A stretch of DNA of 64,000 nucleotides. Source: Candidatus Rifleibacteriota bacterium. Lineage in GTDB: Bacteria > Vulcanimicrobiota > Xenobia > Xenobiales > Xenobiaceae. Location: NCBI GenBank assembly GCA_900772775.1, contig CAAGRW010000043.1, forward strand, positions 62 to 64,061, read 5' to 3'. Under the pieces are notes generated by a model that worked only from the letters and a program-made list of their open reading frames with translations, was not told where the DNA came from and did no database searches. The number at the start of each line of letters is the position of its first letter. The stretch's first letter is position 1. The position numbers and the translations under genes are program-made. Below, in pieces: positions 3,029-51,897 of this stretch.

Positions 3029-3783
3029 TGCCCCATGCTCATGCCTACTACTGCTCCGGCTGCCAAGGCTGCGCTAGTGAGGACAGCGTCGGTAGTACGA
3101 GCAATGCCGGCCAATAACTCACCGGCCATAAGGTCGGCTATAGCGTTTGTTAGAGCTAAACCGGGCAACAGGGGCACCATTCCGGCAATCACTATAGCGC
3201 GATGTTCTACGCTGGAAAAAAATAGACACCAAATATCGGCGAAAATAGTAACGGCCAATCCGTTGAGAAATACCATTAAAAATGGTGCTAGTTTAGCGCA
3301 TTTTAGCTCTACATATTTGGCTAACAGTCCAACTAGCAGTGAAGGTATAATCGAAATTAAATTGCCGGCGATCATCATACCGAAACCAGCACAACAAATA
3401 GCCTGAAATATATACATGGTAGTTTGGCTGTATAGCGGAGCTTTGCGGATTAGTTCGTCTACGGCTTTATCGGCGCTTTGAAAAGAAATTTTGCCTGCAG
3501 CCAGATCGCGAGAAATAGAGTTGATGGCGATAACTTTGGCCAGATCGATAGTGCGATTTTTTACTCTGGTGACGATAGTGATGGTGCGCTCACGGCCCAC
3601 GGTGACGGTAATGCCGGTTGGTGTGGCGTAGCTTTCGACCGGCGTGCCGCAAGCGTGGCCAATGTGTTCTACGGTAGTTTCCACTCGATTGGTCTCTGCT
3701 CCGGAAGCCATTAGCACTTTGGCTGATTTTAGGCATAGACCGGCAATTTTACGCAGAGCATTTTTAGAACACAACTTGGCCAT
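3016..3783 (-). CDS. threonine/serine exporter family protein (YjjP-like, DUF1212/ThrE N-terminal part)
   Basis: A soluble N-terminal region followed by TM helices. It is translationally coupled with the downstream YjjB-like gene. Confidence 0.6.
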   Translation of the reverse strand: MAKLCSKNALRKIAGLCLKSAKVLMASGAETNRVETTVEHIGHACGTPVESYATPTGITVTVGRERTITIVTRVKNRTIDLAKVIAINSISRDLAAGKISFQSADKAVDELIRKAPLYSQTTMYIFQAICCAGFGMMIAGNLISIIPSLLVGLLAKYVELKCAKLAPFLMVFLNGLAVTIFADIWCLFFSSVEHRAIVIAGMVPLLPGLALTNAIADLMAGELLAGIARTTDAVLTSAALAAGAVVGMSMGQWFL

Positions 3784-3841
3784 CGATAATTGCAGCAGCC
3801 CTTTCTATATAAAGGCGTTTTTTATAATTTTTAGTTTGAAA

Positions 3842-5014
3842 CTAACGTTGAACTTCGTTCGTTTCGGCTTTGGCTTCGATTTCCTTGTAATTGGCCGGCT
3901 CGGCAAAAAGCGCATCTAAGAAAAGATCGGGATCAAACTCACGCAAATCGTCAGCTGCTTCACCTACGCCTATGTAGCGCACCGGTAAATGGAACTCTTC
4001 GCCAACGGCAATAACCACTCCGCCTTTGCCTGTTCCGTCCAACTTGCACATAACCACGCCGCTTAACTCTACGGCACGGTTAAATACTTTGGCTTGCTCT
4101 AAAGCATTTTGACCTGTGGTCGCATCGACAACTAACCAAGTTTCGTGAGGAGCACCCGGGCAAGCTTTGTCGCATACACGCCTAATTTTGCCCAACTCTT
4201 CCATAAGGTTGACCTTGTTGTGTAAGCGGCCGGCTGTATCGATAATTACTAAATCGCAACCGCGTGCTTGAGCCGCTTTTATAGCGTCGAAGACCACCGC
4301 ACTGGGATCGGAGCCTTCTTGATGGCTGACTAAATCGACTCCGATCTTATCCGCCCAAGATTGGAGTTGGTCTATGGCTGCTGCTCTAAAAGTATCGGCG
4401 GCTGCCAAAATGACTTTGTGGCCGTCAGCTTTGAATTTTGCCGCCAATTTGGCTGCTGTAGTTGTTTTGCCTACACCGTTGACGCCTACCATCATGACAA
4501 CCTTAAGCTCGCCCGGTTGCAAATCTAAACCGCACTTTTCTCCCTTGTGCTGGCGTAAAATGTCGCTCAAAATAGATTTCATTTCGGTCAACAAATCGCT
4601 AGGTCGGCTGATTTTCTTACTTTTTTGGGCTTTTTTAAGTCGGTCGAGAATATCGGCTGAGGCTGTCAGTCCCACATCTGCTGTCAATAAGATACTTTCC
4701 AGTTCATCCCAAAAATCTTCGTCAATCTTATTAGAAGAGGAAAATAAGCCACTGACTCTGTCTACAAATTGACGACGTGTTTTGTCTAACCCTTTGGCCA
4801 TTTTGTTGAACCAAGGATCGACAGGCGTTAAGGCCAACTCTTTAGCGCTGTCTAAAAAGCCGCGCAAACCTTTTTTGGTGTTTTGATCTTGAGAGGCCGT
4901 TTCCGAATTGGGCTCGGAAGATACCGGAGGCTCGGAAACTACCGGAGTAGCCTGTTCAGTATTGTTTTGAGGGGGAGCTTTTTCTTCTTTGTTGCGTTTG
5001 AACCAATTAAACAT
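3842..5014 (-). CDS. ftsY: signal recognition particle receptor FtsY
   Basis: An acidic, disordered N-terminus followed by the NG domain: GVNGVGKTTTAAKLA, DTAGR and the SRP-GTPase motifs. Confidence 0.9.
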   Translation of the reverse strand: MFNWFKRNKEEKAPPQNNTEQATPVVSEPPVSSEPNSETASQDQNTKKGLRGFLDSAKELALTPVDPWFNKMAKGLDKTRRQFVDRVSGLFSSSNKIDEDFWDELESILLTADVGLTASADILDRLKKAQKSKKISRPSDLLTEMKSILSDILRQHKGEKCGLDLQPGELKVVMMVGVNGVGKTTTAAKLAAKFKADGHKVILAAADTFRAAAIDQLQSWADKIGVDLVSHQEGSDPSAVVFDAIKAAQARGCDLVIIDTAGRLHNKVNLMEELGKIRRVCDKACPGAPHETWLVVDATTGQNALEQAKVFNRAVELSGVVMCKLDGTGKGGVVIAVGEEFHLPVRYIGVGEAADDLREFDPDLFLDALFAEPANYKEIEAKAETNEVQR

Positions 5015-5915: not shown

Positions 5916-8591
5916 TTGAATATGGCTGCCAGAGGTGACAAATTCCTTATTACCGGTATGGCTTGTGCTGCTTGTCAAGCTCATGTTAGCAAAGCTATTT
6001 CTGCTTTGGATGGAGTGGATCAAGCCGAGGTAAATTTACTTTCCGGTACAGCGCGGGTTTTTTACAAAGATAAGCCTTGTCCGGCTGAAGTAATTAAAGC
6101 TATACAAGAAGCCGGATACCAAGCCGAACTCTTAAAAGATGACAGTGTTTGGCAAGAAAATAGTCGTCAAAGGCGCTCTGAAGCCGCCAAAAGCGAACAG
6201 CATTCTCTGGCAATACGCTGTATTTGTACTTTTATACTTCTGTTGCCTCTATTAGCTTGCAGTACTTCAGTCATGTTTGGCTGGCCTATAGACATTGTGC
6301 GCATGGTTCCCGAACCGATAATTTTGTGGTTTGTGGTTTTTCAATGTGCTTTGGCCTTGCTGGCTATGCTGATAAACGTAAAAATATTTATCAGTGGCTT
6401 TAAGGGCTTAATTTCCGGAGCCCCCAATATGGATGCTCTGGTATGTATGGGAACGCTAGCTTCTTTCGCTTATAGCGTTTTCAATTTGTGGTCTATTGAC
6501 AAAATTCTGGGCTTGATATCTTCTTCTAAGTTAGATTGTGCTACTTTCTTAGCCGAAACTTTGCAGCAATACCTTTCGGCCACCTATTTTGACAGTTGCG
6601 CTTTCATATTGTTTTTTGTCACGCTGGGCAAATATTTAGAGGGGCGGGCTAAAGCTAAAACTTCTTTAGCTTTGGAAAAGCTAGCCGATTTAGCTCCTAA
6701 AACAGCACTGATAAAAAAATCCGATGGTTCGGAAGAGGAGCGCCCGGTAGGTTTAGTCTCGGTTGGCGATACTGTCATTATGAAACCTGGTCAGACTGTA
6801 CCTGTGGATGGCATTATTGTCTCTGGCTCCAGCTCTTTAGACGAATCGGCTCTAACTGGAGAAAGTTTACCGGTAGTTAAGCATGTCGGTGATGTAGCTC
6901 TTTCTGGTTCGGTAAATTGCGAAGGACGTTTTGAATTTGTAGCTTCTCAAGTTGGAGCCGATACTACTTTGGCTCAAATCATTCGTTTGGTAGACGAAGC
7001 TTCCAATTCTAAGGCGTCCAGTGCTCGCTTGGCTGATAAGGTTAGCAGCGTCTTTGTACCTGTTGTTTTTACTTTGGCGCTTATAACCGGTTTGCTTTGG
7101 TATTATGTGCCTTTGTGGCTGGACTTAGCAGAATCGGTTTATTGGGGTACCGCTTTAAAGTATGCCGTATCTGTTTTAGTAGTTGCTTGTCCCTGTGCTT
7201 TGGGGTTGGCTTCTCCGGTAGCCATTATGGTAGGCATGGGTAGAGCGGCTCAATTTGGTATTTTGGTACGCAATGCCCAAAGTTTAGAAGAGCTGAGCTC
7301 AGCTAAAGCGGTTATTTTTGACAAAACTGGTACCCTCACCGAAGGCAAACCGGCTATTATTGATTATCAGTCTTTTTGCGAAGATAAATACAGCCGAGAA
7401 CAAGTGTTGGCTTACGCTTTGTCTTTAGAGCAAAATAGTCGCCATCCTTTGGCAATAGCAGTTACAAAGGCAGCTCAAGACAAAGGTTTGAGCGCTCTTT
7501 CAGTAGACAATTTCAAAGAAGTAGTTGGCGGTGGCGTCGAAGCTCTTATAGAAAAACAAATTTGGAAAATAGGCAGTCGCGGCTACATGGCTAAAAATAT
7601 TATGGCCGATTGTAGCTCCGGAAAATTGCAGCGCATCAACGAATATGAAGCTCAGGGCTATAGCATTCTTTATTTAGCCAATCAAAAAGACAATTTGGTT
7701 GGTATTATCGTATTGGCGGATCAACTTCGCCCTGACAGCATTGAAGCTGTACAAAGTTTGCATGAATTAGGTATAAAGGCTATCGTTTTGACTGGCGATA
7801 GGCAAGCGACTGCTGAAAGAATAGCCGAAGAAGTAAAGGCCGATGCTCTCTATGCCGAGGTTTTACCTAGTCAAAAAGCTGACGTTGTCAAAAAATACAA
7901 AGACGAAGTTGGCAAAATTATTGTGGTTGGTGATGGCATCAATGATGCGCCAGCTCTGAAAATCGCCGACGTTGGCGTGGCTGTAGGTACTGGTATTGAT
8001 ATAGCAGTTGAAGCGGCCGATGTTGTCTTAATGAAAAATTCTTTGCTGGATGTTGTTAGAGCTATTGAACTAAGTCGAGCCGTTTTGAGCAATATACGCC
8101 AGAATCTGTTCTGGGCCTTTGCTTATAATGTTTTAGCTATTCCTGTGGCAGCAGGTGTATTTAGCCCTTGGGGCATTGAGCTTACCCCCTCTTTAGCCGC
8201 TTTGGCCATGAGTTTAAGTTCAGTAACTGTAGTTGGCAATGCCTTGCGTTTAAATGGTTTTTATCCTGGTCTTATAGGGAAGGTAAAGCATAAGCGCTCT
8301 GTCGCTTCCCAAAAAGCAAGCTCTACATCTTTGACCAACAAAAAACAAGAAGAAATTAAGCCGGAGGAAAAGACTATGACTAAGATTCTTTATGTTGACG
8401 GAATGATGTGCGAAAAATGTGAAATGCACGTTACCAAAGCTCTTGAAAGTATTGAAGGCGTGAAAGTCAGCCGTATTGAGCGTGCACAAAAAATAGTCGC
8501 TGTGGAGTTAAGTAGTGGAGAAATTTCCGAAGAGACGTTGCGCGAAGCGGTAGAAAAAGCTGGCTATAAAGTGGAGAATATCGTTGGCTGA
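5916..8591 (+). CDS. copA: copper-translocating P1B-type ATPase with an N-terminal and an additional C-terminal HMA metal-binding domain
   Basis: N-terminal HMA (GMACAACQ), the CPC transmembrane motif (VVACPCALGLASP), DKTGTLT, GDGINDAP, and a C-terminal HMA (DGMMCEKCE). Confidence 0.9.
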   Translation: MNMAARGDKFLITGMACAACQAHVSKAISALDGVDQAEVNLLSGTARVFYKDKPCPAEVIKAIQEAGYQAELLKDDSVWQENSRQRRSEAAKSEQHSLAIRCICTFILLLPLLACSTSVMFGWPIDIVRMVPEPIILWFVVFQCALALLAMLINVKIFISGFKGLISGAPNMDALVCMGTLASFAYSVFNLWSIDKILGLISSSKLDCATFLAETLQQYLSATYFDSCAFILFFVTLGKYLEGRAKAKTSLALEKLADLAPKTALIKKSDGSEEERPVGLVSVGDTVIMKPGQTVPVDGIIVSGSSSLDESALTGESLPVVKHVGDVALSGSVNCEGRFEFVASQVGADTTLAQIIRLVDEASNSKASSARLADKVSSVFVPVVFTLALITGLLWYYVPLWLDLAESVYWGTALKYAVSVLVVACPCALGLASPVAIMVGMGRAAQFGILVRNAQSLEELSSAKAVIFDKTGTLTEGKPAIIDYQSFCEDKYSREQVLAYALSLEQNSRHPLAIAVTKAAQDKGLSALSVDNFKEVVGGGVEALIEKQIWKIGSRGYMAKNIMADCSSGKLQRINEYEAQGYSILYLANQKDNLVGIIVLADQLRPDSIEAVQSLHELGIKAIVLTGDRQATAERIAEEVKADALYAEVLPSQKADVVKKYKDEVGKIIVVGDGINDAPALKIADVGVAVGTGIDIAVEAADVVLMKNSLLDVVRAIELSRAVLSNIRQNLFWAFAYNVLAIPVAAGVFSPWGIELTPSLAALAMSLSSVTVVGNALRLNGFYPGLIGKVKHKRSVASQKASSTSLTNKKQEEIKPEEKTMTKILYVDGMMCEKCEMHVTKALESIEGVKVSRIERAQKIVAVELSSGEISEETLREAVEKAGYKVENIVG

Positions 8592-8711
8592 CTTAGAACA
8601 TTATAAGTAGGAGTAGGTTTGCCAATTGTTTGGGCGAAAATAGGCAGGAAATCGTTTACGAACGCCCTAAAAGGTTGGCCTTTCACTTAAAATCGGAGGG
8701 TAGAGCGCTAT

Positions 8712-9983
8712 ATGTTAAAGCACGTTTGGTCAGTTGATCCTGAAGTGGCTCAGGCTATTTATAACGAAACTTGCCGTCAGGCTGAAACTTTAGAAATGAT
8801 CGCTTCGGAAAATTTTGTCAGTGAGGCTGTATTAGAAGCTCAAGGCAGCATTTTAACTAACAAATATGCCGAAGGTTATCCTGGCAAGCGCTACTACGGT
8901 GGATGCGAAAACGTCGATATTATTGAAAACTTAGCTAGAGAGCGGGCGTGTGCTATTTTTGGCGCCGATCATGCCAACGTGCAGCCCCATTCCGGATCTT
9001 CTGCCAATCTGGCAGCCTACTACTCGATTGCTTCCCATGGCGATACCATTATGGGTATGGCTTTAGCCCATGGTGGACACCTTACTCACGGACACAAAGT
9101 TAATTTTAGTGGTTCCCATTTTAATGTAGTTCAATATGGCTTAAATCCGGAAACTGAGCTTATCGACTATGAAGCGATGCGTCGCTTGGCTTTGGAAGCT
9201 AGGCCTAAAGTTATTTTGGCCGGCTCGAGTGCTTATCCCAGAGAAATAGAATTCGCTCCTTTTAGAGCTGTGGCCGATGAAGTTGGCGCCAAGCTTATGG
9301 TAGATATGGCCCACTTTGCCGGTTTGGTGGCCGCCGGTTTACACCAAAATCCTGTGCCTGTGGCTGATATCGTGACCACAACTACGCATAAAACTTTGCG
9401 TGGTCCTCGCGGCGGTATGATTTTATGTAAGGCTGAGTTGGCCAAAGCTGTCGATAAAAATGTTTTCCCCGGCTATCAGGGCGGCCCCTTGGAGCATGTT
9501 ATTGCCGGTAAGGCTGTAGCTTTTAAAGAAGCTCAACAAGACTCATTTAAAGAATATCAACGTCATATTGTGGCTAATGCCAGAGCTTTGGCCAAAGTGT
9601 TGGCCGATGGCGGAGCTCGCTTAATTTCTGGTGGTACCGATACACATCTGATTTTGGTCGACGTAACTCCTTTAGGCTTAACTGGACGTGAAGCCGAAAA
9701 TGCTTTACACAATGCTGGCATTACCGTCAACAAAAATGCCATACCTTTTGATAGCAATCCTCCTGCCATTACCAGCGGTATCCGTTTAGGTACTCCTGCC
9801 TTAACTACTCGCGGTATGGGCATTGCGCAAATGGAACGTATTGGCGCTTGGATTTTAGAGGTTTTGAACGCTCCTCAAGACGCCGATTTAGCTGCAAGGG
9901 TGCGTCGTGAAGTGGGAGAACTTTGTCAAGAGTTCCCTCTTTATGCTCAGCGTTTGCAAGATGATCGTCGTGACGATGCTTAA
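8712..9983 (+). CDS. glyA: serine hydroxymethyltransferase
   Basis: PLP-lysine motif [14 protein letters not shown]. Full-length SHMT pattern. Confidence 0.92.
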
Positions 9984-28908: not shown

Positions 28909-30213
28909 ATGGCCAAGTGTGTTGAGTTATTGGAAAAATTTGCCAATCAGCGCCATGTTTTGGCCTTAAGAGACGGAATGCTCGGTTCTGTGCCAATTAT
29001 TTTGGTGGGCAGCACTTTTTTACTTTTAGGAGCTCAGGGCGAAGTTCTGACTCAGTATTTTGGTGGGGAAGTAGCTTGGTTGCCCAACTTAGTCGATACG
29101 GCTTTAGGCCAATGGTATTTGGCTAATTCTGCCGATTTTTATATCCCTTACCGCTTAACTATGGGTCTCCTGGGGTTATATATCGCCTTCACTATAGCTA
29201 CAGCTTTAGCTAAACAATATAATATGGCTCCCATACCTCAGGGATTGGGAGCTGTGGCAGCTCTTTTAGTGACCAAAGCTCCGAGTAAGGTAGTTTTTGC
29301 CGAGGGTGAGGGAGCACAATGGGCCATTCCTCTCAAACCGTTTGGGCCTGAAGGCATATTCTTAGGCATTATTGTGGCCATTTCTATGGTAGAGTTGTCG
29401 CGCCTTTTTTTGCGTCCCGATCGTCCTCAGGCTGAGCAAGATGAAGTTAGCAAAAGTATTCCGCCAGCGGTGACGGAGGCTTTTGCCGGCTTTTTACCTA
29501 TGTTGGTTGCTGTAAGTATTATTTGGCTTGTCAGCCACGTGTGCGACTTTAATATAAATGAAGGCGTCCTTTGGTTGATGTCTCCTTTAGCCGGTATGGG
29601 TGATACTCTAACGGCTGTAGAAGCTAGCAACTTTTTTCTACATCTTTTTGCCGTGGCTGGCATTCATGGCATTTCTGTCATCAATGCTGTTATGTTGCCT
29701 CTCTGGCAACAGTTTGTGGCTGCCAATGCCGAAGCGCATAGTGCTGGCTTACCTCTACCTCATGTTACCGCTTATCCTTTTTACCAATGGTTTATCTGGA
29801 TTGGCGGCTCCGGAGCTACTTTAGCCCCAACTTGTTTGCTTTTTTTCTTTAAGAACGGCCACTTTCGCAAAGTGGGTAAAATAGCTATTGTGCCGGCTCT
29901 ATTCAATGTAAACGAACCTTTTTTATTCGGCTTACCCGTGATAGCCAATCCTATTTTAGCTATTCCTTGTATTGTGGCTCCTATGATTTGTGGCCTTATC
30001 GCTTGGTGTGCCGTGAGTTGGGGTTTGGTCGGTGCTCCCTTTATTGAAGTGCCGTGGGTAATGCCCGGCTTTTTGGGAGCAATTCTCTCTACGCAAGATT
30101 GGCGCAGCTTGCTGCTCTTTGCCGTTAATTTTTGTGTTAGCGGTATAGTGTGGTTGCCTTTTTTGCGCTATACCGATAAACATGCTGATTTAGGTAAGCA
30201 AGCTAAGAAGTAG
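28909..30213 (+). CDS. PTS EIIC permease, lactose/cellobiose family (orphan: no IIA/IIB/HPr/EI in the window); alternative start 28780
   Basis: The N-terminus ...QRHVLALRDGMLGSVPIILVGSTFLLLG matches the EIIC-cellobiose N-terminal motif. ~10 TM segments. Confidence 0.65.
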   Translation: MAKCVELLEKFANQRHVLALRDGMLGSVPIILVGSTFLLLGAQGEVLTQYFGGEVAWLPNLVDTALGQWYLANSADFYIPYRLTMGLLGLYIAFTIATALAKQYNMAPIPQGLGAVAALLVTKAPSKVVFAEGEGAQWAIPLKPFGPEGIFLGIIVAISMVELSRLFLRPDRPQAEQDEVSKSIPPAVTEAFAGFLPMLVAVSIIWLVSHVCDFNINEGVLWLMSPLAGMGDTLTAVEASNFFLHLFAVAGIHGISVINAVMLPLWQQFVAANAEAHSAGLPLPHVTAYPFYQWFIWIGGSGATLAPTCLLFFFKNGHFRKVGKIAIVPALFNVNEPFLFGLPVIANPILAIPCIVAPMICGLIAWCAVSWGLVGAPFIEVPWVMPGFLGAILSTQDWRSLLLFAVNFCVSGIVWLPFLRYTDKHADLGKQAKK

Positions 30214-31756
30214 GCAAAGAACACAAATTGACCCAGCGGCAAAGCGTATCTCTAGTGAGTTCGCCGCGCCGCAACATTTGCCAGGCCAAAAGGGCCAATT
30301 TACTAAAATTTAAAGCTTGAGCCAAGTAGCGTATCTGAGTCGGATGGCTTTGCAAATATGGGGAAGAAGCCAAAAATTTTATAAAGCTAAGCGGCACTGG
30401 CTTGGATAAAAGTGTATAAATTGAATACCAAAAAGTATCTTCTGCCGGGCGTGGCCAGGAAAGAGAAACGCGAAATTGTTTAAGACATTTATCGTTGCGA
30501 CCTTCTACTTGATCGGGGGTAATGGTGCCGTCAGCTAGATAGTGCTCGGTAATATCTGTCTGTGGCCAATAAGACAAAGAAAAGAGATAAAGATCGTAAG
30601 GCCTGGGCAATTGAGCCAAAAGCTCAAAAAGCTGTCTCTTTTCTTGGCTAGTGACGTGCGGATCGTCCAAAAGTATCTGGTAACAAACTTTTAAATCAAG
30701 TTCATGCAATATGCGTCCAGCTTCCAATACTTTTTGATCGCTTACTTCGCGATTGTATAGGCGTTTATTGACTGCGCTAATATGCTGAATGCCCATCATA
30801 ACTGTGTCTAAACCGACGTCTTTTAGTTGTTGCAATATTTCTTTTTGCACTACACGCGGATCAGTTAAAATTTCAAAAGGCAAATCAATTTTTTGTTGTC
30901 GATAAAGGTGGCAAAATTTTTTAACCCATTCCGGACGTAAGCAAAAAAGCTCATCATCAAAACGGAAACGGCGCAGATTGGGAAAATTTTGCTTGGCATA
31001 TACGCACTCTTCCACTGTGCGCTCTGGACTCATAACGCGATAGAATTGTCCCAGATCTTTATAACTTTTGCGCAAAGCACTGATGTCGCAATACGAACAA
31101 TTAAAAAGACAGCCCCGCGCCGACATCATCAGGTATATAGTTTGATCTATGTAAGGATCGCCTGAGGTTAGGTGGTTATTGTTTATATAATATTTGCTTT
31201 CATGAGAGTGAAAATCGCGAAAAGGCAAATCGTCCAAGTTGTTGTGTAGGCGGCGCGGGGCATTGCGCACTATTGTACCGTCGGCTTCTTTGTACCACAA
31301 ACCGTCAATGCCTTGCCAAGAGCGCTGTTGCTCTAAAGCTTCCATAAGTTCAACGATAGTGTCTTCACCTTCGCCTATAATAATGCCTTGGCAAGAATTT
31401 AAAGCACTTTCGGGATCCATGGTGACGTGCATTCCGCCCCATATTATTGGTAAGTTAAATTCTTGCCTGAGCTTTTTACTTAAACTTTGGGCCAATTTGC
31501 TATAGCCGCCAGCTCGTACCGATAAGCCAATAAGATCTACTTTTTCGCGATGTAAGGTCTCAGAAAGCAGAGTATATTCCTTATCGCTGGGTTCGGTAAA
31601 ATGGTGATGCTGATAATCTTTAAAGTAAATTTCGATTACGCGCCAACCTTGAGAGCGCAAGGAAGAAGCCAAAAAACGTATACCATTGTTTTCGACTATA
31701 TAGAGAGAAATAAGAGCGATAGCTTTACGCTTGGGGCAAGCGTCCGATGTGGCCAC
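30203..31756 (-). CDS. cobalamin (B12)-binding radical SAM protein (class B)
   Basis: N-terminal B12-binding Rossmann-like region and the radical SAM cysteine triad CLFNCSYC (Cx3Cx2C). It is the last gene of the pgpH-ybeY-Nudix operon. Confidence 0.7.
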   Translation of the reverse strand: MATSDACPKRKAIALISLYIVENNGIRFLASSLRSQGWRVIEIYFKDYQHHHFTEPSDKEYTLLSETLHREKVDLIGLSVRAGGYSKLAQSLSKKLRQEFNLPIIWGGMHVTMDPESALNSCQGIIIGEGEDTIVELMEALEQQRSWQGIDGLWYKEADGTIVRNAPRRLHNNLDDLPFRDFHSHESKYYINNNHLTSGDPYIDQTIYLMMSARGCLFNCSYCDISALRKSYKDLGQFYRVMSPERTVEECVYAKQNFPNLRRFRFDDELFCLRPEWVKKFCHLYRQQKIDLPFEILTDPRVVQKEILQQLKDVGLDTVMMGIQHISAVNKRLYNREVSDQKVLEAGRILHELDLKVCYQILLDDPHVTSQEKRQLFELLAQLPRPYDLYLFSLSYWPQTDITEHYLADGTITPDQVEGRNDKCLKQFRVSLSWPRPAEDTFWYSIYTLLSKPVPLSFIKFLASSPYLQSHPTQIRYLAQALNFSKLALLAWQMLRRGELTRDTLCRWVNLCSLPTS

Positions 31757-31781: not shown

Positions 31782-32669
31782 CTAAATCAGCTTGGCAGTA
31801 TGTAAAATATGCTTGGCTTGCTGTAAAATGTTCTTTTCGCTCTGATAATAGAGCTTGCGCCAAGCTTCACCAAAATCGAACCAGGCCACTTCAGAAGCTT
31901 CTCCATCTGGCACAGAGGCATTTTCTTGAATTAAAGGCATAAGGAAGAAAGTGACCATCTTATAATAGAGAGTGCGATTATCTCGCCAATAGAAGTAGTA
32001 TTCTATCTGGTCGATACGTTCGGCAATGGTGGCTAAATGGCCAGTTTCTTCCAGCACTTCTCTGGTGGCTGTCATTTCCCAAGTTTCGCCACTCTGTACT
32101 CTGCCTTTGGGTAAAGCCCAAACGGCGCCTCCTTTTTTAGCAATAAGGCACACTTTTAATTTGTCTCCTTCTTGCTTGTAAAGGACGCCGCCGGCTGATT
32201 GCTGGATGGCATGATGGCTTTTGGCTTCTTGTTTGTCTTTTTCCTCGGCGCTCACGATTGTAGTATCGGCCGGAGGGCGCAAACTTGCTTCCAAAGCTAA
32301 AGTGATAACTTTATTTGGTTTTAAGCTGTCGTATAAAGCAAAGTTTACTTTCAGAGAGCGAGCCAAGCGACGGGCTCTTTTGTGCAATCCCAAAATGCTC
32401 AAATCGTCTATTGTGGGATTATGCAACAGACTGCGGATCATCTTGGCATTATTTAAGAGTATTTTAACTTGCGTATATTTGTGCTCGGAAGCCCACAACA
32501 AAGCCATAATTACCGCTTGGTACTGTGCTTGTGCGGTAGTGGCAATGCCTATATTTTCGGATACAAGCACTCGACTGCCGTCTGGAGTTTCGATAACCAG
32601 ACCGACGCCGGCGCTTCCCGGATTGTTGCGGGCTGTTCCGCAAGTATGTATTACTAGACTCTGTGTCAC
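31782..32669 (-). CDS. fusion protein: N-terminal RNase H-like (RVT_3-type) domain with all catalytic acidic residues substituted, plus a C-terminal Nudix hydrolase domain with an intact Nudix box
   Basis: N-terminus IHTCGTARNNPGSAGVGL...AQAQYQAVIMAL...KILLNNAK versus the RNase HI pattern TDGS...NNRMELMA...STDSQ. Canonical Nudix box GRVQSGETWEMTATREVLEETGH (Gx5Ex7REUxEExGU). Confidence 0.65.
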   Translation of the reverse strand: MTQSLVIHTCGTARNNPGSAGVGLVIETPDGSRVLVSENIGIATTAQAQYQAVIMALLWASEHKYTQVKILLNNAKMIRSLLHNPTIDDLSILGLHKRARRLARSLKVNFALYDSLKPNKVITLALEASLRPPADTTIVSAEEKDKQEAKSHHAIQQSAGGVLYKQEGDKLKVCLIAKKGGAVWALPKGRVQSGETWEMTATREVLEETGHLATIAERIDQIEYYFYWRDNRTLYYKMVTFFLMPLIQENASVPDGEASEVAWFDFGEAWRKLYYQSEKNILQQAKHILHTAKLI

Positions 32670-32675
32670 TTTAGC

Positions 32676-33329
32676 TTATTTTGTGTAGACTTCAGCTGCC
32701 ATTTTGGGAATTGAATTAAAGCCCATAGCTTCCACTATGGCCAATTCATAAGTGCGCATAACTTGGCGGGTTTCTTCTGTAGGATGATCAAAACCTACTA
32801 AATGAAGCATAGCGTGGGCGACCAACCAGGCGATCATGTGGCGCAAACTAATGCCGTCTTCTTTAGCTTGGCGTTTAGCTGTGTCTAGGCTGATAACAAT
32901 TTCACCTAAATAAAGGTGTACATCAGGATAAATAAGCAAAGCGGGCTCGTCTTCCCAAGCGGGAAAGCTCAAAACATCGGTAGGGGAATCGACTTGACGA
33001 AATTCTTTATTGAGAGTGTGAATGGCCGAATCAGTAACAATAGAGAGCTCAACTTCAAATTTTCGTTGATCGATAGTTGGGGCCGCTTCGTCTTCATTGA
33101 CCATTTTGCCTAAGCATTTAAATAAGCCTATCTTTTGATCGATTACGCGTACGGCTTCGTAAACGGCTTGGCGATAGAAGTTCTTGGAAACTTCGGCAAA
33201 ATTTTCTTTTGTTTTATTGAAAAGTTCTGTTCTGACTTTTAATGAACGTCCACGCATTTTTAGGCTGCTCCTCATAGCAAAAAAAATCTCGGCCCTATTT
33301 TCGATTTTGACCGCTATATTTTCTCGCAA
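32676..33329 (-). CDS. ybeY: rRNA maturation endoribonuclease YbeY (N-terminal start uncertain; the ORF is longer than typical)
   Basis: Zn-binding motif HAMLHLVGFDH and the NVLSFP block. Confidence 0.85.
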   Translation of the reverse strand: MRENIAVKIENRAEIFFAMRSSLKMRGRSLKVRTELFNKTKENFAEVSKNFYRQAVYEAVRVIDQKIGLFKCLGKMVNEDEAAPTIDQRKFEVELSIVTDSAIHTLNKEFRQVDSPTDVLSFPAWEDEPALLIYPDVHLYLGEIVISLDTAKRQAKEDGISLRHMIAWLVAHAMLHLVGFDHPTEETRQVMRTYELAIVEAMGFNSIPKMAAEVYTK

Positions 33330-33377: not shown

Positions 33378-35558
33378 CTAAGCATCTTTCTTTTTTATTT
33401 CTGCTGCCGTTTTAGCTTGAGAAGCTTCTGAGGGAGCTGAAGCTGGTTGGGAGGGAGTGGGCGCAGGCGCAGCGGACTGTTTACCCATGGTCTTAGAATC
33501 GGGATAAGCTACGCGATTATGATAATGGCTAGTCAGAGAACGCAAAATTGAGGCTTTTACCGTATTTATATCGCGCATTGACAGGGGACATTCGTCCAAT
33601 TGGCGGTTGTTGATAATACCACCCACAATTTTATCAATTAAATTCTTTAAATTCTCTCTGTTGGGCACAGGCAGAGTGCGTGAAGCGGCCTCGATACCGT
33701 CGCACATCATAACAATGGCCGTTTCTTTGGATTGTGGACGCGGCCCCGGATAGCGGAAGTCTTCGGCAAAGACTGGTTCGTCGTCTTGCATCTTGGCTTT
33801 CTGATAGAAGAAAGAGGCCAAATTGGTACCATGATGTTCAGGAATAAATTTAGCTATTTCCGGAGGTAACTTGTACTTTTTGGCCATTTCTTGGCCGAGC
33901 TTAATATGGGAAATTACTATCATTGCTGACAAAGCCGGAGGCAACTTGTCGTGAGGATTCTCGTGGCCGGTTTGATTTTCGACGAACATGTTGGGCTGTC
34001 TCATCTTTCCCAAATCGTGATAGTAGGCACCGGCTCGGCACAACATGCTGTCGGCGCCTATAGCTTGGGCGGCTGCTTCGGCCAAATTGGCTACCATAAT
34101 AGAGTGCATGTAAGTTCCTGGAGCTCTGTTAAGCAATTCATGCAAAGCTGGCTCATTAGGATTGGCCAATTCCAAGAGGCGAATATGGGTAGTTACTTTG
34201 CAAGCGCCTTCTAAGAAAGGCAGAGCTCCGGAGGCGATTAAAGCCGGCAACAAACCGTTAAGGCCTCCGTAGAAGAGGGCACACACAGCCAATTCTTCAA
34301 AACTGTCACAGTTGCTTAAAGCAAAAATAGCTACGACCAATACATTTATGGCCCAGACCCAAAGAGAAGCCGTTACTACGTTCCAGCGTTTGTTGGCATT
34401 TTGTACAGCTAAAGCGCCAACCATGCCCGTAATGAGTACGGAAACGGCAGCTTCCAGAGTGTTGGTCATTATACCCGAGTAAATCCCCAACATGCTGACA
34501 ATCATTAAAGACAAACGAGGATCGGCCAAAATTGAAATCAGCATACTGGTGAAGGCAATAGGTAACAAATAAGGCGAGATCATGGTCGTATAGCGAGAAA
34601 CAACCACAAAAGCGACACAAAGAAAAGCTACGCCGAATACCAAACGCAAATTATTGTAAAATTTTGGTATATAAAGCTTTATATAGTAGTTGGCCAAAAT
34701 TTGCATGACCAACACCATAGTGCAATATATGAAGAGAGCGCTCCAAGTGATGCCTTTTTTGTATACGCCTAAAGCCTCTAAAACAGGCACGTCATGTTCG
34801 CCTACAATGTCGCCTTCGCGAATGACAATCTGTCCGGGGAGGATAGTTTTAGTGATAGGCTCTACTTTATCGCTGGCTTGGATTTTGGCTTGTTGAGTGG
34901 CATTGTAGTCAATAAATTTGTTGGGGACGAGGGCTGCTCTAGCTAGTTCTGCATCTATAGAGGCGTTGGCTTCGGTAAGGCCGGGTAAAGCTCTGGCTTC
35001 TTGTTCAATACGTTTGTAGGCAGCATCTATTTCATCTTCGCGTACACCGGTTTGCATAACTACGCCGAGAATATGCTCGCTATTTGTATAGTATTGCTCT
35101 AAGGCGGGAACACTGGCGCTAAGTAAAGTTTTGACGGTAGCTAAGCCCAAATCCAAGGGCACTTGTGCGGATACGTCGGCTACTTCTTTGTCGGTAAATT
35201 TACCAGAAGCATGTCCTCTCTGAGCTTCACGAATGATATTGAAAGTTTGGCTGATCTTATTTTTGCTTATCTCTAAAGATTGAGGGCTGATATTTTCGAT
35301 AGAAGCAACTTGGGAAGCGGCTTGTTCTTTGGCTTTATGCCAACGCTGTTCGTCTACAATTTGCACTGAACGTGAAGCTTTTATATCCCAGGGAGCAGGT
35401 TTACCTACTTCTACTCTATTGATGTTGGGCAAATCGGTCACTATGAGCATAGCCACGGAAATTACATAAACAAAAATGCCTATGCCTAAGCAAATAAGTT
35501 TGTTCCGATCATACATAGATTGGAATATGTCTTTTATTCTAGCCAAAAAATTCGCCAT
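33378..35558 (-). CDS. pgpH: 7TM receptor with intracellular HD hydrolase domain (PgpH/YqfF-like HDIG phosphodiesterase)
   Basis: An extracellular N-terminal domain, 7 TM helices, a C-terminal HD domain (YYHDLGK), and the conserved pgpH-ybeY gene order. Confidence 0.8.
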   Translation of the reverse strand: MANFLARIKDIFQSMYDRNKLICLGIGIFVYVISVAMLIVTDLPNINRVEVGKPAPWDIKASRSVQIVDEQRWHKAKEQAASQVASIENISPQSLEISKNKISQTFNIIREAQRGHASGKFTDKEVADVSAQVPLDLGLATVKTLLSASVPALEQYYTNSEHILGVVMQTGVREDEIDAAYKRIEQEARALPGLTEANASIDAELARAALVPNKFIDYNATQQAKIQASDKVEPITKTILPGQIVIREGDIVGEHDVPVLEALGVYKKGITWSALFIYCTMVLVMQILANYYIKLYIPKFYNNLRLVFGVAFLCVAFVVVSRYTTMISPYLLPIAFTSMLISILADPRLSLMIVSMLGIYSGIMTNTLEAAVSVLITGMVGALAVQNANKRWNVVTASLWVWAINVLVVAIFALSNCDSFEELAVCALFYGGLNGLLPALIASGALPFLEGACKVTTHIRLLELANPNEPALHELLNRAPGTYMHSIMVANLAEAAAQAIGADSMLCRAGAYYHDLGKMRQPNMFVENQTGHENPHDKLPPALSAMIVISHIKLGQEMAKKYKLPPEIAKFIPEHHGTNLASFFYQKAKMQDDEPVFAEDFRYPGPRPQSKETAIVMMCDGIEAASRTLPVPNRENLKNLIDKIVGGIINNRQLDECPLSMRDINTVKASILRSLTSHYHNRVAYPDSKTMGKQSAAPAPTPSQPASAPSEASQAKTAAEIKKKDA

Positions 35559-35658: not shown

Positions 35659-36447
35659 ATGGCAAGATGCAGCGTCGGCGAGCGCACAAAAGGTGCCCTT
35701 CGTTCGAGAATAGGCGAAATGTTGCATGGCCAAGAAAAAGGTTTGAAATTCCGATATGGCGAAAGTTCCGGCATGAGTGAACTTCAAAACAATCCCTGCG
35801 AATGCAAAAAAGATGAATTGCTTGAGATCTTCTTGGGTGGCGATTTAGCCTCTGCCGAGACTCAGGAAAAAGCGGCAACCGATTCCGAAAGAGCCGAACG
35901 TGAAAAGCTCGGATTAGCCAAAGTTGCTGAAGAATTGAGTGCCAATCCTAAGTCTTTAGAGGGAATTGCCTTCGAGTTGTTGGGCAATTTGCTGCTGGGC
36001 GGCGTCAGTGTTGTTGACAAAGTGGCTGAGCTGATGATGGATAAAAATCCGGCCGGCTACGTCAATGCCATATTTAAAGCTGCCGACAGATGTACTGTCC
36101 CCTATGTAAAATTTACTTTAGTCCGTGCTGTTTTCAGACGTTATCCCGGTCGTTATCGTCCCTATATCATGGCTTTAGGGCGAGAACTTATTTCTGGAAC
36201 GTTTGATGAACACACTATAGATGTAACTTTATGGCTGTTGCAAAAATTTGGCGCCGAATTGCTTCCCGATTTGGTCACTTTTATGCGTGCCGAAGGTCAC
36301 GGCCAGGAGAAAATTAAAGTTTTGACTGATGCCGTGCAAATGTTGGGCGGGGCAGCTCTGCCTGTAGTCACCGCTGCTGCCGACAGCGCCGACGCCGAGT
36401 TGGCTCAGGCTGGTACCGAAGCACTTAAACGTATTGGTCAAGCTTAA
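35659..36447 (+). CDS. hypothetical HEAT/ARM-like repeat protein (start ambiguous: 35659/35719/35773)
   Basis: Helical repeat-like sequence with a PBS-lyase/HEAT-like C-terminus (AELAQAGTEALKRIG). No SD is clear for any candidate start. Confidence 0.35.
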   Translation: MARCSVGERTKGALRSRIGEMLHGQEKGLKFRYGESSGMSELQNNPCECKKDELLEIFLGGDLASAETQEKAATDSERAEREKLGLAKVAEELSANPKSLEGIAFELLGNLLLGGVSVVDKVAELMMDKNPAGYVNAIFKAADRCTVPYVKFTLVRAVFRRYPGRYRPYIMALGRELISGTFDEHTIDVTLWLLQKFGAELLPDLVTFMRAEGHGQEKIKVLTDAVQMLGGAALPVVTAAADSADAELAQAGTEALKRIGQA

Positions 36448-51488: not shown

Positions 51489-51565
51489 GGGCGAATAGCT
51501 CAGTTGGCTAGAGCACCTGCGTCACATGCAGGGGGTCACAGGTTCGAGTCCTGTTCCGCCCACCA
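51489..51565 (+). tRNA. tRNA-Val (anticodon CAC)
   Basis: Cloverleaf by eye: D-stem GCTC/GAGC, anticodon stem CCTGC/GCAGG with loop GTCACAT, T-arm ACAGG-TTCGAGT-CCTGT, 3' CCA encoded. Confidence 0.7.
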
Positions 51566-51604
51566 TTATGTGAGGGACTAAGGCAAAAGAAGAATATGCG
51601 GTAT

Positions 51605-51681
51605 GGGGGAGTGGCCTAGAGGCTTAGGGCGCTGGCCTGTCACGCCGGAGGTCGCGGGTTCGAATCCCGTCTCTCCCGCCA
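51605..51681 (+). tRNA. tRNA-Asp (anticodon GTC), copy 1
   Basis: Acceptor GGGGGAG/CTCTCCC, anticodon stem CTGGC/GCCGG with loop CTGTCAC, T-loop TTCGAAT, GCCA end. Confidence 0.75.
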
Positions 51682-51702
51682 AATATCTTCTTCTTTTTGT
51701 CT

Positions 51703-51778
51703 GCCGGGGTAGCTCAGTTGGTAGAGCATGCGACTGAAAATTGCAGTGTCCCCAGTCCGAATCTGGGCCTCGGCACCA
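51703..51778 (+). tRNA. tRNA-Phe (anticodon GAA)
   Basis: GCCGGGGTAGCTCAGTTGGTAGAGC...ACTGAAAAT...TTCGAATC...CACCA. Classic Phe tRNA. Confidence 0.8.
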
Positions 51779-51820
51779 CCAAAATGGGCGCAAGCTTGTT
51801 TTGAAAGAACGCAGCGGTAT

Positions 51821-51897
51821 GGGGGAGTGGCCTAGAGGCTTAGGGCGCTGGCCTGTCACGCCGGAGGTCGCGGGTTCGAATCCCGTCTCTCCCGCCA
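51821..51897 (+). tRNA. tRNA-Asp (anticodon GTC), copy 2 (identical to copy 1, including 7 nt of 5' flank)
   Basis: Exact repeat of 51598-51681. Confidence 0.75.

What the first reader, a model, noticed from the sequence alone, without database searches (positions are those of the whole stretch)
31782..32669. Pseudo-RNase H domain fused to an intact Nudix hydrolase
The N-terminal ~130 aa have the RNase HI / RVT_3 fold signature (..NPG..G.G.., A.Y.A...AL).

All four carboxylates of the DEDD catalytic set appear replaced:
- TDGS -> TCGT
- MELMA -> QYQA
- TDSQ -> LNNAK
- CDELA -> ARRLA

The C-terminal half has a textbook Nudix box, GRVQSGETWEMTATREVLEETGH.

A catalytically dead RNase H fold would still be suited to binding RNA:DNA hybrids or other nucleic acids. 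Joined to an active pyrophosphohydrolase, this suggests a targeting/sensor domain delivering Nudix chemistry (for example decapping or nucleotide-derivative hydrolysis) to a nucleic-acid substrate. I do not recognise this architecture as a characterised family.
Basis: partly seen in the sequence, partly recalled or inferred. Interest (0 to 1): 0.7.

Follow-up and report, generated by a model that had tools for sequence, protein, structure and literature searches.

The report
Dead RNase H fused to Nudix
This gene encodes an apparently working Nudix pyrophosphatase joined to an RNase H domain that has lost all four catalytic residues; relatives still keep an intact RNase H, so it is a derived, uncharacterised variant of two well-known enzyme folds.

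Summary
Window 31782..32669 on the minus strand encodes a 295-aa protein with three parts: an N-terminal RNase HI/RVT_3 fold (residues 1-131), a disordered linker (132-152) and a C-terminal Nudix domain (153-295) with a complete Nudix box.

All four DEDD carboxylates are replaced: C10, Q49, N73 and I122. 'ARRLA' lies in helix alpha-D; the D134 equivalent is I122 in 'KVITLALEA'.

The architecture is not unique to this window. It is a small family (about 16 clusters at 50% identity among 1.84 billion representatives), mostly labelled Vulcanimicrobiota/Eremiobacterota. Thirteen of the 54 members scored for these residues keep intact DEDD. On a rough tree, catalytic residues were lost once at the base of the window's clade and apparently several more times elsewhere. 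The Nudix box is complete in all 53 members that include it.

The dead domain is under purifying selection. Across the main clade the gene lies in or just after the pgpH-ybeY operon.

The Nudix domain is closest to Ap4A/Ap6A hydrolases and the MutT1 N-terminal domain.

Best reading: an ApnA-type Nudix hydrolase with a non-catalytic RNase H-derived accessory module. Whether that module targets nucleic acid is plausible but not shown. No paper on this fusion was found.

The parts
31782..32669 (-). Whole gene: 295-aa RNase H-like/Nudix fusion protein. GTG start; stop codon at 31782..31784.
32277..32669 (-). N-terminal RNase HI (RVT_3/archaeal-type) fold, residues 1-131, with all four DEDD positions replaced.
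   Evidence: Pfam RVT_3 at 28.9 bits. AF2 topology. Foldseek matches to 4e19, 3hst and 4h8k. hhalign against E. coli RNase HI.
32640..32642 (-). C10, the equivalent of catalytic D10.
32523..32525 (-). Q49, the equivalent of catalytic E48. Q is invariant in the window's core subclade.
32451..32453 (-). N73, the equivalent of catalytic D70. Most close relatives still have D here.
32304..32306 (-). I122, the equivalent of catalytic D134, in helix alpha-E ('KVITLALEA').
32214..32276 (-). Interdomain linker, residues 132-152. It is low-confidence or disordered in the model, evolves fast, and varies from 0 to 94 residues across the family.
31785..32213 (-). C-terminal Nudix domain, residues 153-295, of the Ap4A/Ap6A hydrolase / MutT1 N-terminal-domain subgroup.
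   Evidence: Pfam NUDIX at 60.5 bits. phmmer against PDB: 3i7u at 7e-16. Foldseek: 3i7u TM 0.89-0.91, plus 5gg5, 9cxx, 4mpo and 1vc8.
32037..32105 (-). Nudix box GRVQSGETWEMTATREVLEETGH, residues 189-211.
   Evidence: G189, E195, R203, E204, E207, E208 and G210 are invariant in alignment A1.
32676..33329 (-). Upstream gene ybeY (endoribonuclease YbeY). Its stop codon lies 6 nt before the fusion gene's start, so the two are probably co-transcribed and translationally coupled.
   Evidence: synteny
33378..35558 (-). First gene of the cluster: a 7TM receptor with an HD hydrolase domain (PgpH-like).
   Evidence: synteny
30203..31756 (-). Downstream co-directional B12-binding radical SAM gene, 25 nt after the fusion gene. 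This neighbour is seen only in the two Bruticola loci.

Best explanation
The gene encodes a two-domain cytoplasmic protein expressed from the pgpH-ybeY gene cluster.

**Catalytic part.** The C-terminal Nudix domain is the working enzyme. It is most likely a Mg2+-dependent pyrophosphohydrolase of the Ap4A/Ap6A-hydrolase / MutT1 N-terminal-domain type. Its substrates would be dinucleoside polyphosphates or closely related nucleoside-polyphosphate compounds. Cleavage of polyphosphate 5' ends of RNA is not excluded.

**Dead part.** The N-terminal domain descends from an active archaeal-type (RVT_3) RNase HI that was already fused to this Nudix module in the ancestor of the family. In the window's lineage it has lost all four metal-binding carboxylates (C10, Q49, N73, I122). 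It therefore cannot carry out two-metal-ion hydrolysis of RNA:DNA hybrids.

**Why the dead part is kept.** It is retained under purifying selection as a non-catalytic accessory module, tethered by a flexible linker. In this subclade it is very basic and has gained a conserved HKRxRR helix, so it probably still binds a polyanion such as nucleic acid.

**Shown:** domain identities, the folds, loss of the catalytic residues, family history, selection and synteny.

**Inferred:** Nudix activity and substrate class, and any binding role for the dead domain.
For: **Fold and family.**
- Pfam RVT_3 plus NUDIX.
- AF2 model with pLDDT 89.6 and RNase H topology.
- Foldseek places the N-domain with 4e19, 3hst and 4h8k (TM 0.79-0.87). 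It places the Nudix domain with Ap4A hydrolase 3i7u (TM 0.89-0.91), MutT1 5gg5, Rv2985 9cxx (described as a 'diadenosine polyphosphatase'), CT771 bound to Ap4A products, and the Ap6A hydrolase 1vc8.
- phmmer against PDB gives the same ranking.

**Dead active site.** C10, Q49, N73 and I122 align with D10, E48, D70 and D134.

**Derived state.**
- DEDD is intact in 9 of the 40 aligned members (P0012, 19, 25, 27, 28, 29, 33, 36, 39) and in P0053, P0055, P0056 and P0076.
- A neighbour-joining tree puts the window in one large degenerate clade. Further partial or complete losses are scattered elsewhere: P0023, P0024, P0030, P0034, P0040, P0041/44 and P0046.

**Nudix as the core function.**
- The Nudix box and about 38 positions are invariant across the family, nearly all of them in the Nudix half.
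- Stand-alone 162-166-aa orthologues exist.

**Selection on the dead domain.**
- Window versus Bruticola: pN is 0.126 (N-domain), 0.305 (linker) and 0.043 (Nudix), with pS about 0.77-0.80.
- The ratio of N-domain to Nudix divergence is 1.45-1.85 in degenerate clades and 1.82 in the DEDD-type clade.
- 31 positions are invariant in the core subclade, including Q47-A52 and H96, K97, R100, R101.

**Charge.** The window N-domain has pI 10.0 and net charge +7.

**Operon.** There is a 6-nt gap after ybeY. The order pgpH-ybeY-[dgkA-corC]-fusion is conserved in 10 loci.
Against: - No biochemical data exist for any member, and no paper was found.
- The substrate class rests on about 30% identity to characterised enzymes. 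Nudix specificity is known to be hard to predict from similarity at that level.
- The NCBIfam MutT1 equivalog score is 61.8 bits against a cut-off of 475, so the protein is not an orthologue of MutT1.
- A binding role for the dead domain is not supported uniformly. Sister degenerate subclades have acidic N-domains (P0009 -4, P0011 -10, P0013-16 -1 to -5).
- The TNN substrate-contact motif is changed to TTA.
- pTM 0.58 and the variable linker give no defined interdomain geometry.
- The synteny with ybeY could simply be inherited gene order. It is absent in P0036, P0039, P0040 and P0044.
Confidence: 0.6

Rival explanations
1. The dead RNase H domain still recognises RNA:DNA hybrids or structured RNA. 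It delivers the Nudix domain to a nucleic-acid 5' end, for example by removing pyrophosphate or an Np4 cap from 5'-triphosphorylated or capped RNA. Possible targets include primer RNA annealed to DNA, or rRNA precursors handled by YbeY.
For: - The RNase H fold is fully preserved and under purifying selection.
- The window N-domain has net charge +7 and a conserved basic helix, LGLHKRARRLARS.
- The gene sits immediately after the RNA-processing gene ybeY.
- Enzymes with ApnA-hydrolase activity, such as RppH, also decap Np4-capped RNA in E. coli (abstracts of PMC7044304 and PMC8833179, listed).
Against: - Scores against the RppH, YtkD and NudC models are far below their cut-offs: 12-22 bits against 116-259.
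- N-domains in sister degenerate subclades are acidic.
- The linker length is unconstrained, from 0 to 94 residues.
- Stand-alone Nudix orthologues do without the domain.
- No nucleic-acid binding was tested.
Confidence: 0.25
2. The dead RNase H domain has no nucleic-acid role. It serves as a structural, oligomerisation, regulatory or protein-protein interaction module for a small-molecule Nudix hydrolase, for example one that clears the Ap4A alarmone.
For: - RNase H catalytic residues appear to have been lost repeatedly while the Nudix box stayed constant.
- N-domain charge ranges from -10 to +13 across the family.
- The substrate-contact TNN motif is not conserved, even in DEDD-intact members (ATGN, ATGH, ATRS).
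- The closest characterised Nudix relatives act on small molecules.
- In two distant members the gene lies directly upstream of clpB or hsp20. That fits a stress-alarmone context, but the link is my own inference.
Against: - Why an intact DEDD set persists in many members is left unexplained.
- AF2 predicts no confident interdomain interface (pTM 0.58).
- No partner protein has been identified.
Confidence: 0.3
3. The Nudix domain is a MutT-type sanitiser of oxidised nucleotides (8-oxo-(d)GTP), as the automatic JGI names suggest. The fusion originally coupled two genome-maintenance activities: RNase H and nucleotide-pool cleaning.
For: - The best NCBIfam hit for the Nudix half is MutT1 (5.4e-17), and MutT models also hit weakly.
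- MutT1 structures are among the top structural matches.
- JGI names two family members 'ribonuclease HI/8-oxo-dGTP pyrophosphatase MutT' and '8-oxo-dGTP diphosphatase'.
Against: - All of these scores are far below the equivalog cut-offs: 61.8 against 475, 26.6 against 148 and 24.2 against 97.9.
- The single best sequence and structure match is an Ap4A hydrolase.
- The PDB entry for M. tuberculosis MutT1 itself calls it a diadenosine polyphosphatase (9cxx).
- The histidine-phosphatase partner domain of MutT1 is absent.
Confidence: 0.15
4. The N-domain is still an active nuclease that uses other acidic residues, so the domain is not dead.
For: - E38 is nearly invariant across the family.
- D88, D89 and E127 lie within the domain.
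Against: - Three independent alignments and the fold topology place non-acidic residues at all four metal-ligand positions.
- E38 is equally conserved in DEDD-intact members, so it is not a compensating replacement.
- From established RNase H enzymology, single substitutions of D10, E48 or D70 abolish E. coli RNase HI activity.
Confidence: 0.04

Closest known systems
Aquifex aeolicus Ap4A hydrolase aq_158 (PDB 3i7u), with T. thermophilus Ap6A hydrolase Ndx1 (1vc8) and Chlamydia CT771 (4ilq/4mpo)
   Same: - Best sequence match (E 7e-16, residues 157-289) and best structural match (TM 0.89-0.91, rmsd about 2 A, 32-33% identity) to the C-terminal domain.
- Motifs shared outside the Nudix box: SAGGV, W-x-[FL]-PKG, K-x-V-x-[FY]-[FY]-LM and L-x-Y-x-x-[DE]K.
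   Different: - Those enzymes are single-domain proteins of 126-153 aa with no RNase H module.
- Identity is only about 30%, so the same substrate is not assured.
Mycobacterial MutT1 (Rv2985 / MSMEG MutT1; PDB 9cxx, 5gg5)
   Same: - Its Nudix N-terminal domain is the best NCBIfam hit (5.4e-17) and is among the top structural matches.
- It is also a two-domain protein in which this Nudix subtype is fused to a second hydrolase fold.
   Different: - The partner domain in MutT1 is a C-terminal histidine phosphatase, not an N-terminal RNase H.
- The score of 61.8 bits against the equivalog cut-off of 475 shows this protein is not an orthologue.
Rv2228c / RnhC (MSMEG_4305), a bifunctional RNase HI / CobC-type acid phosphatase (PDB 3hst)
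   Same: - Its N-terminal RVT_3-type RNase HI domain is the best PDB sequence match to the window's N-domain (1.4e-7) and a close structural match (TM 0.82-0.87).
- It is likewise an RNase HI fused to a phosphohydrolase.
   Different: - RnhC has an intact DEDD set and is an active RNase H1 (abstracts of PMC5224475 and PMC7466739, listed).
- Its partner domain is a histidine acid phosphatase rather than a Nudix domain.
- The window protein lacks all four carboxylates.
Archaeal-type RNase HI without a basic protrusion: Halobacterium RNase H1 (4e19) and metagenomic LC11-RNase H1 (3u3g/4h8k)
   Same: - Same fold and size, with shared GNPG and A-T-x-x-x-A-x-Y-x-A-L motifs.
- TM 0.79-0.86.
   Different: - Those are active single-domain enzymes with a DEDD set.
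- Here the four positions are C, Q, N and I, and a Nudix domain is attached.
E. coli RppH (RNA pyrophosphohydrolase / Np4 decapping enzyme)
   Same: It is a Nudix enzyme with ApnA-hydrolase activity that acts on RNA 5' ends (abstracts of PMC7044304 and PMC8833179, listed). It is the functional model for the 'targeted Nudix' reading.
   Different: - The sequence relationship is weak: 14-22 bits against cut-offs of 116-259.
- RppH has no RNase H domain.
DUF429 (RNase H-like) - Nudix fusions noted by Majorek et al. 2014 (PMC3985635)
   Same: It is a precedent for an RNase H-like superfamily domain occurring together with a Nudix hydrolase domain.
   Different: DUF429 is a different clade of the RNase H-like superfamily. 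It is not type 1 RNase H/RVT_3, and it occurs in other taxa (Alphaproteobacteria, Clostridia, Spirochaetes).

Membership tests
Type 1 RNase H (RNase HI), RVT_3 / archaeal-type subgroup | RNase H fold: five-stranded mixed sheet with helices, in the order b1-b2-b3-aA-b4-aB-aD-b5-aE. | tested here: met
   AF2 secondary-structure elements are E4-13, E18-27, E33-43, H45-62, E67-72, H75-82, H90-104, E107-112 and H120-130, with pLDDT mostly above 90. Foldseek gives TM 0.79-0.87 to 4e19, 3hst and 4h8k.
Type 1 RNase H (RNase HI), RVT_3 / archaeal-type subgroup | Profile match above the curated threshold. | tested here: met
   RVT_3 PF13456 scores 28.9 bits against a cut-off of 21.6. The classical RNase_H PF00075 scores only 17 bits against 25.8, so it is not met.
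Type 1 RNase H (RNase HI), RVT_3 / archaeal-type subgroup | DEDD catalytic carboxylates (E. coli D10, E48, D70, D134) that bind two metal ions. | tested here: not met
   C10, Q49, N73 and I122 occupy these positions. The protein is a structural member of the fold but not a catalytic member.
Type 1 RNase H (RNase HI), RVT_3 / archaeal-type subgroup | Cleavage of the RNA strand of RNA:DNA hybrids. | not testable with these tools
   This needs an enzyme assay.
Nudix hydrolase superfamily | Nudix box GX5EX7REUXEEXGU. | tested here: met
   Residues 189-211 read G-RVQSG-E-TWEMTAT-RE-V-L-EE-T-G-H. Only the final U position is H. The box residues are invariant across the 40 aligned family members.
Nudix hydrolase superfamily | Pfam NUDIX match above threshold, and the alpha/beta/alpha Nudix fold. 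| tested here: met
   60.5 bits against a cut-off of 21.1. TM 0.89-0.91 to 3i7u.
Nudix hydrolase superfamily | Pyrophosphohydrolase activity. | not testable with these tools
   This needs an enzyme assay.
Ap4A/Ap6A hydrolase - MutT1 N-terminal-domain Nudix subgroup | Closest sequence and structural neighbours are characterised ApnA hydrolases, with shared motifs outside the Nudix box. | tested here: met
   The top hits are 3i7u, 9cxx, 4ilq, 5gg5 and 1vc8, and the alignment shows the shared motifs. This is similarity only; the substrate was not tested.
Mycobacterial MutT1 (NCBIfam NF052459 equivalog) | Equivalog score cut-off, and a C-terminal histidine-phosphatase domain. | tested here: not met
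   61.8 bits against a cut-off of 475, covering only profile positions 3-127 of 292. No His_Phos domain was found.
RppH / YtkD RNA pyrophosphohydrolases | NCBIfam equivalog cut-offs. | tested here: not met
   14-22 bits against cut-offs of 116-259.
Bifunctional RNase H/acid phosphatase (Rv2228c/RnhC, NF005567) | RNase HI domain plus a CobC-type phosphatase domain, and the equivalog cut-off. | tested here: not met
   38.3 bits against a cut-off of 326, matching the RNase H part only. No phosphatase domain was found.
Uncharacterised RNase H(RVT_3)-Nudix fusion family (databases label members 'NUDIX domain-containing protein') | Colinear full-length homology across both domains. | tested here: met
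   - About 40 near-full-length (>=93% of the query) homologues at 35-84% identity.
- About 16 clusters at 50% identity among the top hits from 1.84 billion representatives.

The most novel reading that the evidence does not exclude
The RNase H-derived pseudo-enzyme domain is a dedicated reader of RNA:DNA hybrids or structured RNA. It recruits an ApnA/RppH-like Nudix activity to the 5'-polyphosphate or Np4-capped ends of specific RNAs, such as primer RNA on DNA or rRNA precursors processed by the co-transcribed YbeY. This would be a previously undescribed, hybrid-guided RNA 5'-end processing enzyme. The DEDD-intact relatives would then couple 5'-end conversion with endonucleolytic removal of the same RNA.
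Probability: 0.15. Interest if true: 0.65.

Novelty: new variant of a known kind. Interest (0 to 1): 0.42.

Why it matters
Both folds are textbook, and databases already label family members 'NUDIX domain-containing protein'. The gene is therefore not a new kind of system.

What is new in this analysis is the evolutionary picture:
- It is a rare RNase HI-Nudix fusion, seen mostly in MAGs labelled Vulcanimicrobiota/Eremiobacterota.
- The RNase H active site seems to have been lost repeatedly, completely so in the window's clade, whose closest members come from gut and rumen MAGs.
- Despite that loss, the fold stays under purifying selection and the Nudix site never changes.

This makes the family a clean natural example of pseudo-enzyme evolution within a bifunctional protein.

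If the dead domain proves to bind nucleic acid, the family would add a new way of targeting Nudix chemistry to RNA ends. It would also offer a hybrid-binding module that cannot cleave.

If it does not bind nucleic acid, this is an ordinary ApnA-type Nudix hydrolase carrying a vestigial but structurally needed appendage.

Tried and rejected
- **AlphaFold database search.** A Foldseek search against afdb50, meant to find named proteins with the same architecture, could not run because the library was unavailable.
- **dN/dS per domain.** Synonymous sites are saturated (pS 0.71-0.89 in all but one short linker comparison), so no ratio could be computed. Only the contrast between pN and pS, and between domains, is usable.
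- **Literature.** Searches for an RNase H-Nudix fusion found only a DUF429-Nudix mention and nothing on this family.
- **Anti-phage defence role.** PADLOC gave only a weak generic Nudix hit (21.9 bits), so this was rejected.
- **RNA elements near the gene.** Rfam and tRNA scans found only a tRNA cluster about 19 kb away.
- **Operon boundaries.** The promoter/terminator scan gave nothing above shuffle expectation that would separate the gene from ybeY.
The mapping of D134 to 'ARRLA' was rejected on topology and on three alignments.
- **A second RNase H or Nudix gene in the window.** None was found. The rest of the genome could not be examined.
- **A conserved functional partner outside the main clade.** The neighbours differ from locus to locus: clpB, hsp20, ileS-lspA and adenine deaminase.
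Full report
**1. What is at the coordinates**

Window 31782..32669 holds one ORF on the minus strand. It is 295 aa long with a GTG start. The ybeY stop codon lies 6 nt upstream, and a co-directional radical SAM gene starts 25 nt downstream.

Pfam gives two domains above their curated cut-offs:
- RVT_3 at residues 11-106, 28.9 bits against 21.6.
- NUDIX at residues 157-283, 60.5 bits against 21.1.

The classical RNase_H model scores below its threshold (17 bits against 25.8).

**2. Fold**

An AlphaFold2 model built on a 40-sequence family alignment has mean pLDDT 89.6.
- Residues 4-130 form the RNase H topology b1-b2-b3-aA-b4-aB-aD-b5-aE.
- Residues 132-152 are low-confidence.
- Residues 153-291 form a Nudix fold.
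- pTM is only 0.58, so the mutual orientation of the two domains is not defined.

Foldseek against the PDB matches the N-domain to:
- Halobacterium RNase H1 4e19 (TM 0.86, rmsd 1.9 A);
- the RNase H domain of Rv2228c, 3hst (TM 0.82-0.87);
- LC11-RNase H1 4h8k.

It matches the C-domain to:
- Aquifex Ap4A hydrolase 3i7u (TM 0.89-0.91);
- MutT1 5gg5 and Rv2985 9cxx (described as a 'Nudix diadenosine polyphosphatase');
- CT771 bound to Ap4A products;
- Ap6A hydrolase Ndx1.

Sequence search of the PDB gives the same neighbours.

**3. The catalytic residues**

Three independent mappings agree: phmmer alignments to 3hst, 4h8k and 4e19; the family alignment with DEDD-intact homologues; and hhalign of the family profile against E. 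coli RNase HI at 95.8% probability.

| E. coli RNase HI | Window protein |
|---|---|
| D10 | C10 |
| E48 | Q49 |
| D70 | N73 |
| D134 | I122 |

That segment is helix alpha-D, which precedes strand b5. D134 lies in the helix after b5, and the equivalent here is I122 in 'KVITLALEA'. The conclusion that no carboxylate remains at any of the four metal-ligand positions still holds.

By established RNase H enzymology (two-metal-ion catalysis, with loss of activity on substitution of D10, E48 or D70), this domain should be catalytically dead.

The Nudix box GRVQSGETWEMTATREVLEETGH (residues 189-211) is complete.

**4. It belongs to a family, and the dead domain is a derived state**

A search of 5.8 billion proteins found about 40 near-full-length homologues (at least 93% of the query) at 35-84% identity. 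The closest named one is from Candidatus Bruticola (Vulcanimicrobiota, class Xenobia).

A profile search of 1.84 billion 50%-identity representatives found about 16 clusters with both domains among the top 150 hits. The architecture is therefore rare but real.

Catalytic columns were scored in 54 proteins: the 40 of alignment A1 plus 14 further representatives.
- A full DEDD set is present in nine members of the alignment (P0012, 19, 25, 27, 28, 29, 33, 36, 39) and in P0053, P0055, P0056 and P0076.
- DDDD or DEED variants occur in four more.
- The remainder have one to four positions replaced.
- The Nudix box is complete in all 53 scored proteins that include it.

On neighbour-joining trees the window falls in one large degenerate clade, made up of the window, P0002-11, P0013-18, P0020 and P0022. 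All of these lack D10 and E48. This clade is sister to a clade that mostly retains DEDD-type residues.

Other partial or complete losses are scattered across the tree: P0023, P0024, P0030, P0034, P0040, P0041/44 and P0046. DEDD-intact members sit on deep branches (P0036, P0039, P0033). The ancestral state was therefore most likely an active RNase H-Nudix fusion. RNase H catalysis appears to have been lost several times. The tree is a simple distance tree, so the count of losses is approximate.

Species-representative genomes with the full fusion are labelled as follows:
- Eremiobacteraeota or Vulcanimicrobiota;
- rumen bacteria;
- one MAG labelled 'Burkholderiales', which shares the pgpH-ybeY synteny and may be mislabelled.

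P0039 is labelled Chloroflexi.

**5. The dead domain is kept by selection**

- Between the window and the Bruticola orthologue, the non-synonymous difference per site is 0.126 in the N-domain, 0.305 in the linker and 0.043 in the Nudix domain. Synonymous sites are saturated at pS 0.77-0.80. A dN/dS ratio cannot be computed, but it is clearly well below 1 for the N-domain.
- The ratio of N-domain to Nudix-domain divergence is 1.45-1.85 in the degenerate clades and 1.82 in the DEDD-type clade. Losing the catalytic residues did not release the domain from constraint.
- 31 N-domain positions are invariant in the window's core subclade. They include the remodelled former active-site helix (Q47-A-Q49-Y-Q-A52) and a basic stretch, H96, K97, R100 and R101.
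- The window's N-domain has pI 10.0 and net charge +7.
- However, N-domains of sister degenerate subclades are acidic (net -1 to -10), and the linker ranges from 0 to 94 residues.
- Stand-alone 162-166-aa orthologues of the Nudix module exist, including one in a Vulcanimicrobiota MAG.

Taken together, the Nudix module is the constant functional core and the RNase H module is an accessory.

**6. Genomic context**

In the window the order is pgpH-like 7TM-HD gene, ybeY, the fusion gene, then a B12-binding radical SAM gene. All are on the minus strand with short gaps.

| Arrangement | Loci |
|---|---|
| pgpH-ybeY-fusion, directly adjacent | degenerate-clade loci L003, L004, L006, L007, L008, L087 |
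| pgpH-ybeY-dgkA-corC-fusion, with a small unannotated ORF on the opposite strand before the fusion in three of the four loci | DEDD-type loci L001, L002, L009, L086 |

More distant members have unrelated neighbours: clpB, hsp20, ileS-lspA and adenine deaminase.

The link to the ybeY operon is therefore conserved across the main clade. It could reflect inherited gene order as much as functional coupling. I give it modest weight as a hint towards RNA metabolism.

**7. Mechanism**

*Most likely (confidence about 0.6 for the package).*
- The protein is a Nudix pyrophosphohydrolase of the ApnA-hydrolase/MutT1 N-terminal-domain subgroup.
- Its RNase H-derived N-domain no longer cleaves anything but is retained as a non-catalytic module.

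*Sub-claims.*

| Claim | Confidence |
|---|---|
| The RNase H domain is catalytically dead | about 0.9 |
| The Nudix domain is catalytically competent | about 0.85 |
| The substrate is of the dinucleoside/nucleoside polyphosphate class | about 0.5 |

*What the dead domain does is open.*
In its favour are the basic surface in this subclade, the preserved fold and the ybeY linkage.
- A structural, regulatory or protein-interaction role has a probability of about 0.3. In its favour are the variable charge, the variable linker and the repeated dispensability of catalysis.

*Other options.*
- A MutT-type 8-oxo-GTPase function remains possible (about 0.15).
- Residual nuclease activity through alternative residues is unlikely (about 0.04).

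**8. Comparison with known proteins**

The closest characterised relatives are:
- single-domain Ap4A/Ap6A hydrolases (3i7u, 1vc8, CT771), for the Nudix half;
- archaeal-type RNase HI and the RNase H domain of Rv2228c/RnhC, for the N-terminal half.

Two mycobacterial proteins each share one domain type, fused to a histidine phosphatase: MutT1 (Nudix plus phosphatase) and RnhC (RNase H plus phosphatase). The protein is an orthologue of neither, because NCBIfam scores are far below the equivalog cut-offs. RppH-type models are also far below their cut-offs.

Majorek et al. 2014 mention Nudix fusions with DUF429, which is a different RNase H-like clade. I found no paper describing an RNase HI/RVT_3-Nudix fusion. 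That is absence of evidence within the searchable library only.

**9. Verdict**

- The feature is a new variant of known kinds: an uncharacterised fusion family with a derived pseudo-RNase H domain. It is not a categorically new system.
- Interest is moderate (0.42). The repeated loss of RNase H catalysis, with the fold retained next to an invariant Nudix site, is a tidy and testable pseudo-enzyme case.
- There is an outside chance (about 0.15) that it is a hybrid-guided or RNA-guided 5'-end processing enzyme.

Noticed in passing
Proteins P0065, P0068, P0069, P0072-74, P0077, P0083, P0089, P0096, P0097, P0099, P0100, P0102, P0130, P0141, P0145, P0158, P0172, P0173, P0180 (not in the window): The profile search pulled out many proteins with two or three tandem RVT_3/RNase H-like domains and no Nudix domain (269-931 aa). 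I did not examine their catalytic residues or origin.
   Followed up: no
Protein P0176 (not in the window): This 279-aa protein has the reverse order: a partial Nudix match at residues 14-104, then a DEDD-intact RNase H domain at 149-275. The two folds may therefore have been joined more than once.
   Followed up: partly
L005 6001-6885 next to 6900-9452; L090 2380-3297 next to 3472-3942: In two distant family members (P0039, labelled Chloroflexi, and P0040) the fusion gene sits directly upstream of a heat-shock gene on the same strand: clpB in one and hsp20 in the other. This may be relevant because Ap4A is known as a heat-shock alarmone (my own knowledge, not tested here).
   Followed up: no
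window 32676..33329 (-): The mechanically called ybeY ORF is 217 aa with a TTG start, but the Pfam YbeY match covers only residues 88-200. The Bruticola homologue is called at 194 aa. The real start is probably further downstream.
   Followed up: no
window 30203..31756 (-): A B12-binding radical SAM gene lies 25 nt downstream of the fusion gene on the same strand. This neighbour is shared only with the Bruticola loci L003 and L004, and its function is unknown.
   Followed up: partly
window 51489..51897 (+): A tight tRNA cluster: Val(cac), Asp(gtc), Phe(gaa), Asp(gtc).
   Followed up: no
L001 5580-5945, L002 5580-5945, L086 5581-5946 (minus strand): In the DEDD-type loci a conserved 121-aa ORF with no Pfam match lies on the opposite strand, between corC and the fusion gene. 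It could be a real small gene or an artefact of gene calling.
   Followed up: no
Loci L003/L004 (Ca. Bruticola), L006 (goat rumen MAG), L008 (rumen MAG RUG807): The closest members of the fully degenerate subclade come from gut or rumen MAGs. The habitats of the DEDD-type loci were not determined, so a link between host association and loss of RNase H catalysis was not tested.
   Followed up: no
window 35659..36447 (+): A 262-aa ORF divergent from the pgpH cluster has no Pfam match at E <= 0.001.
   Followed up: no
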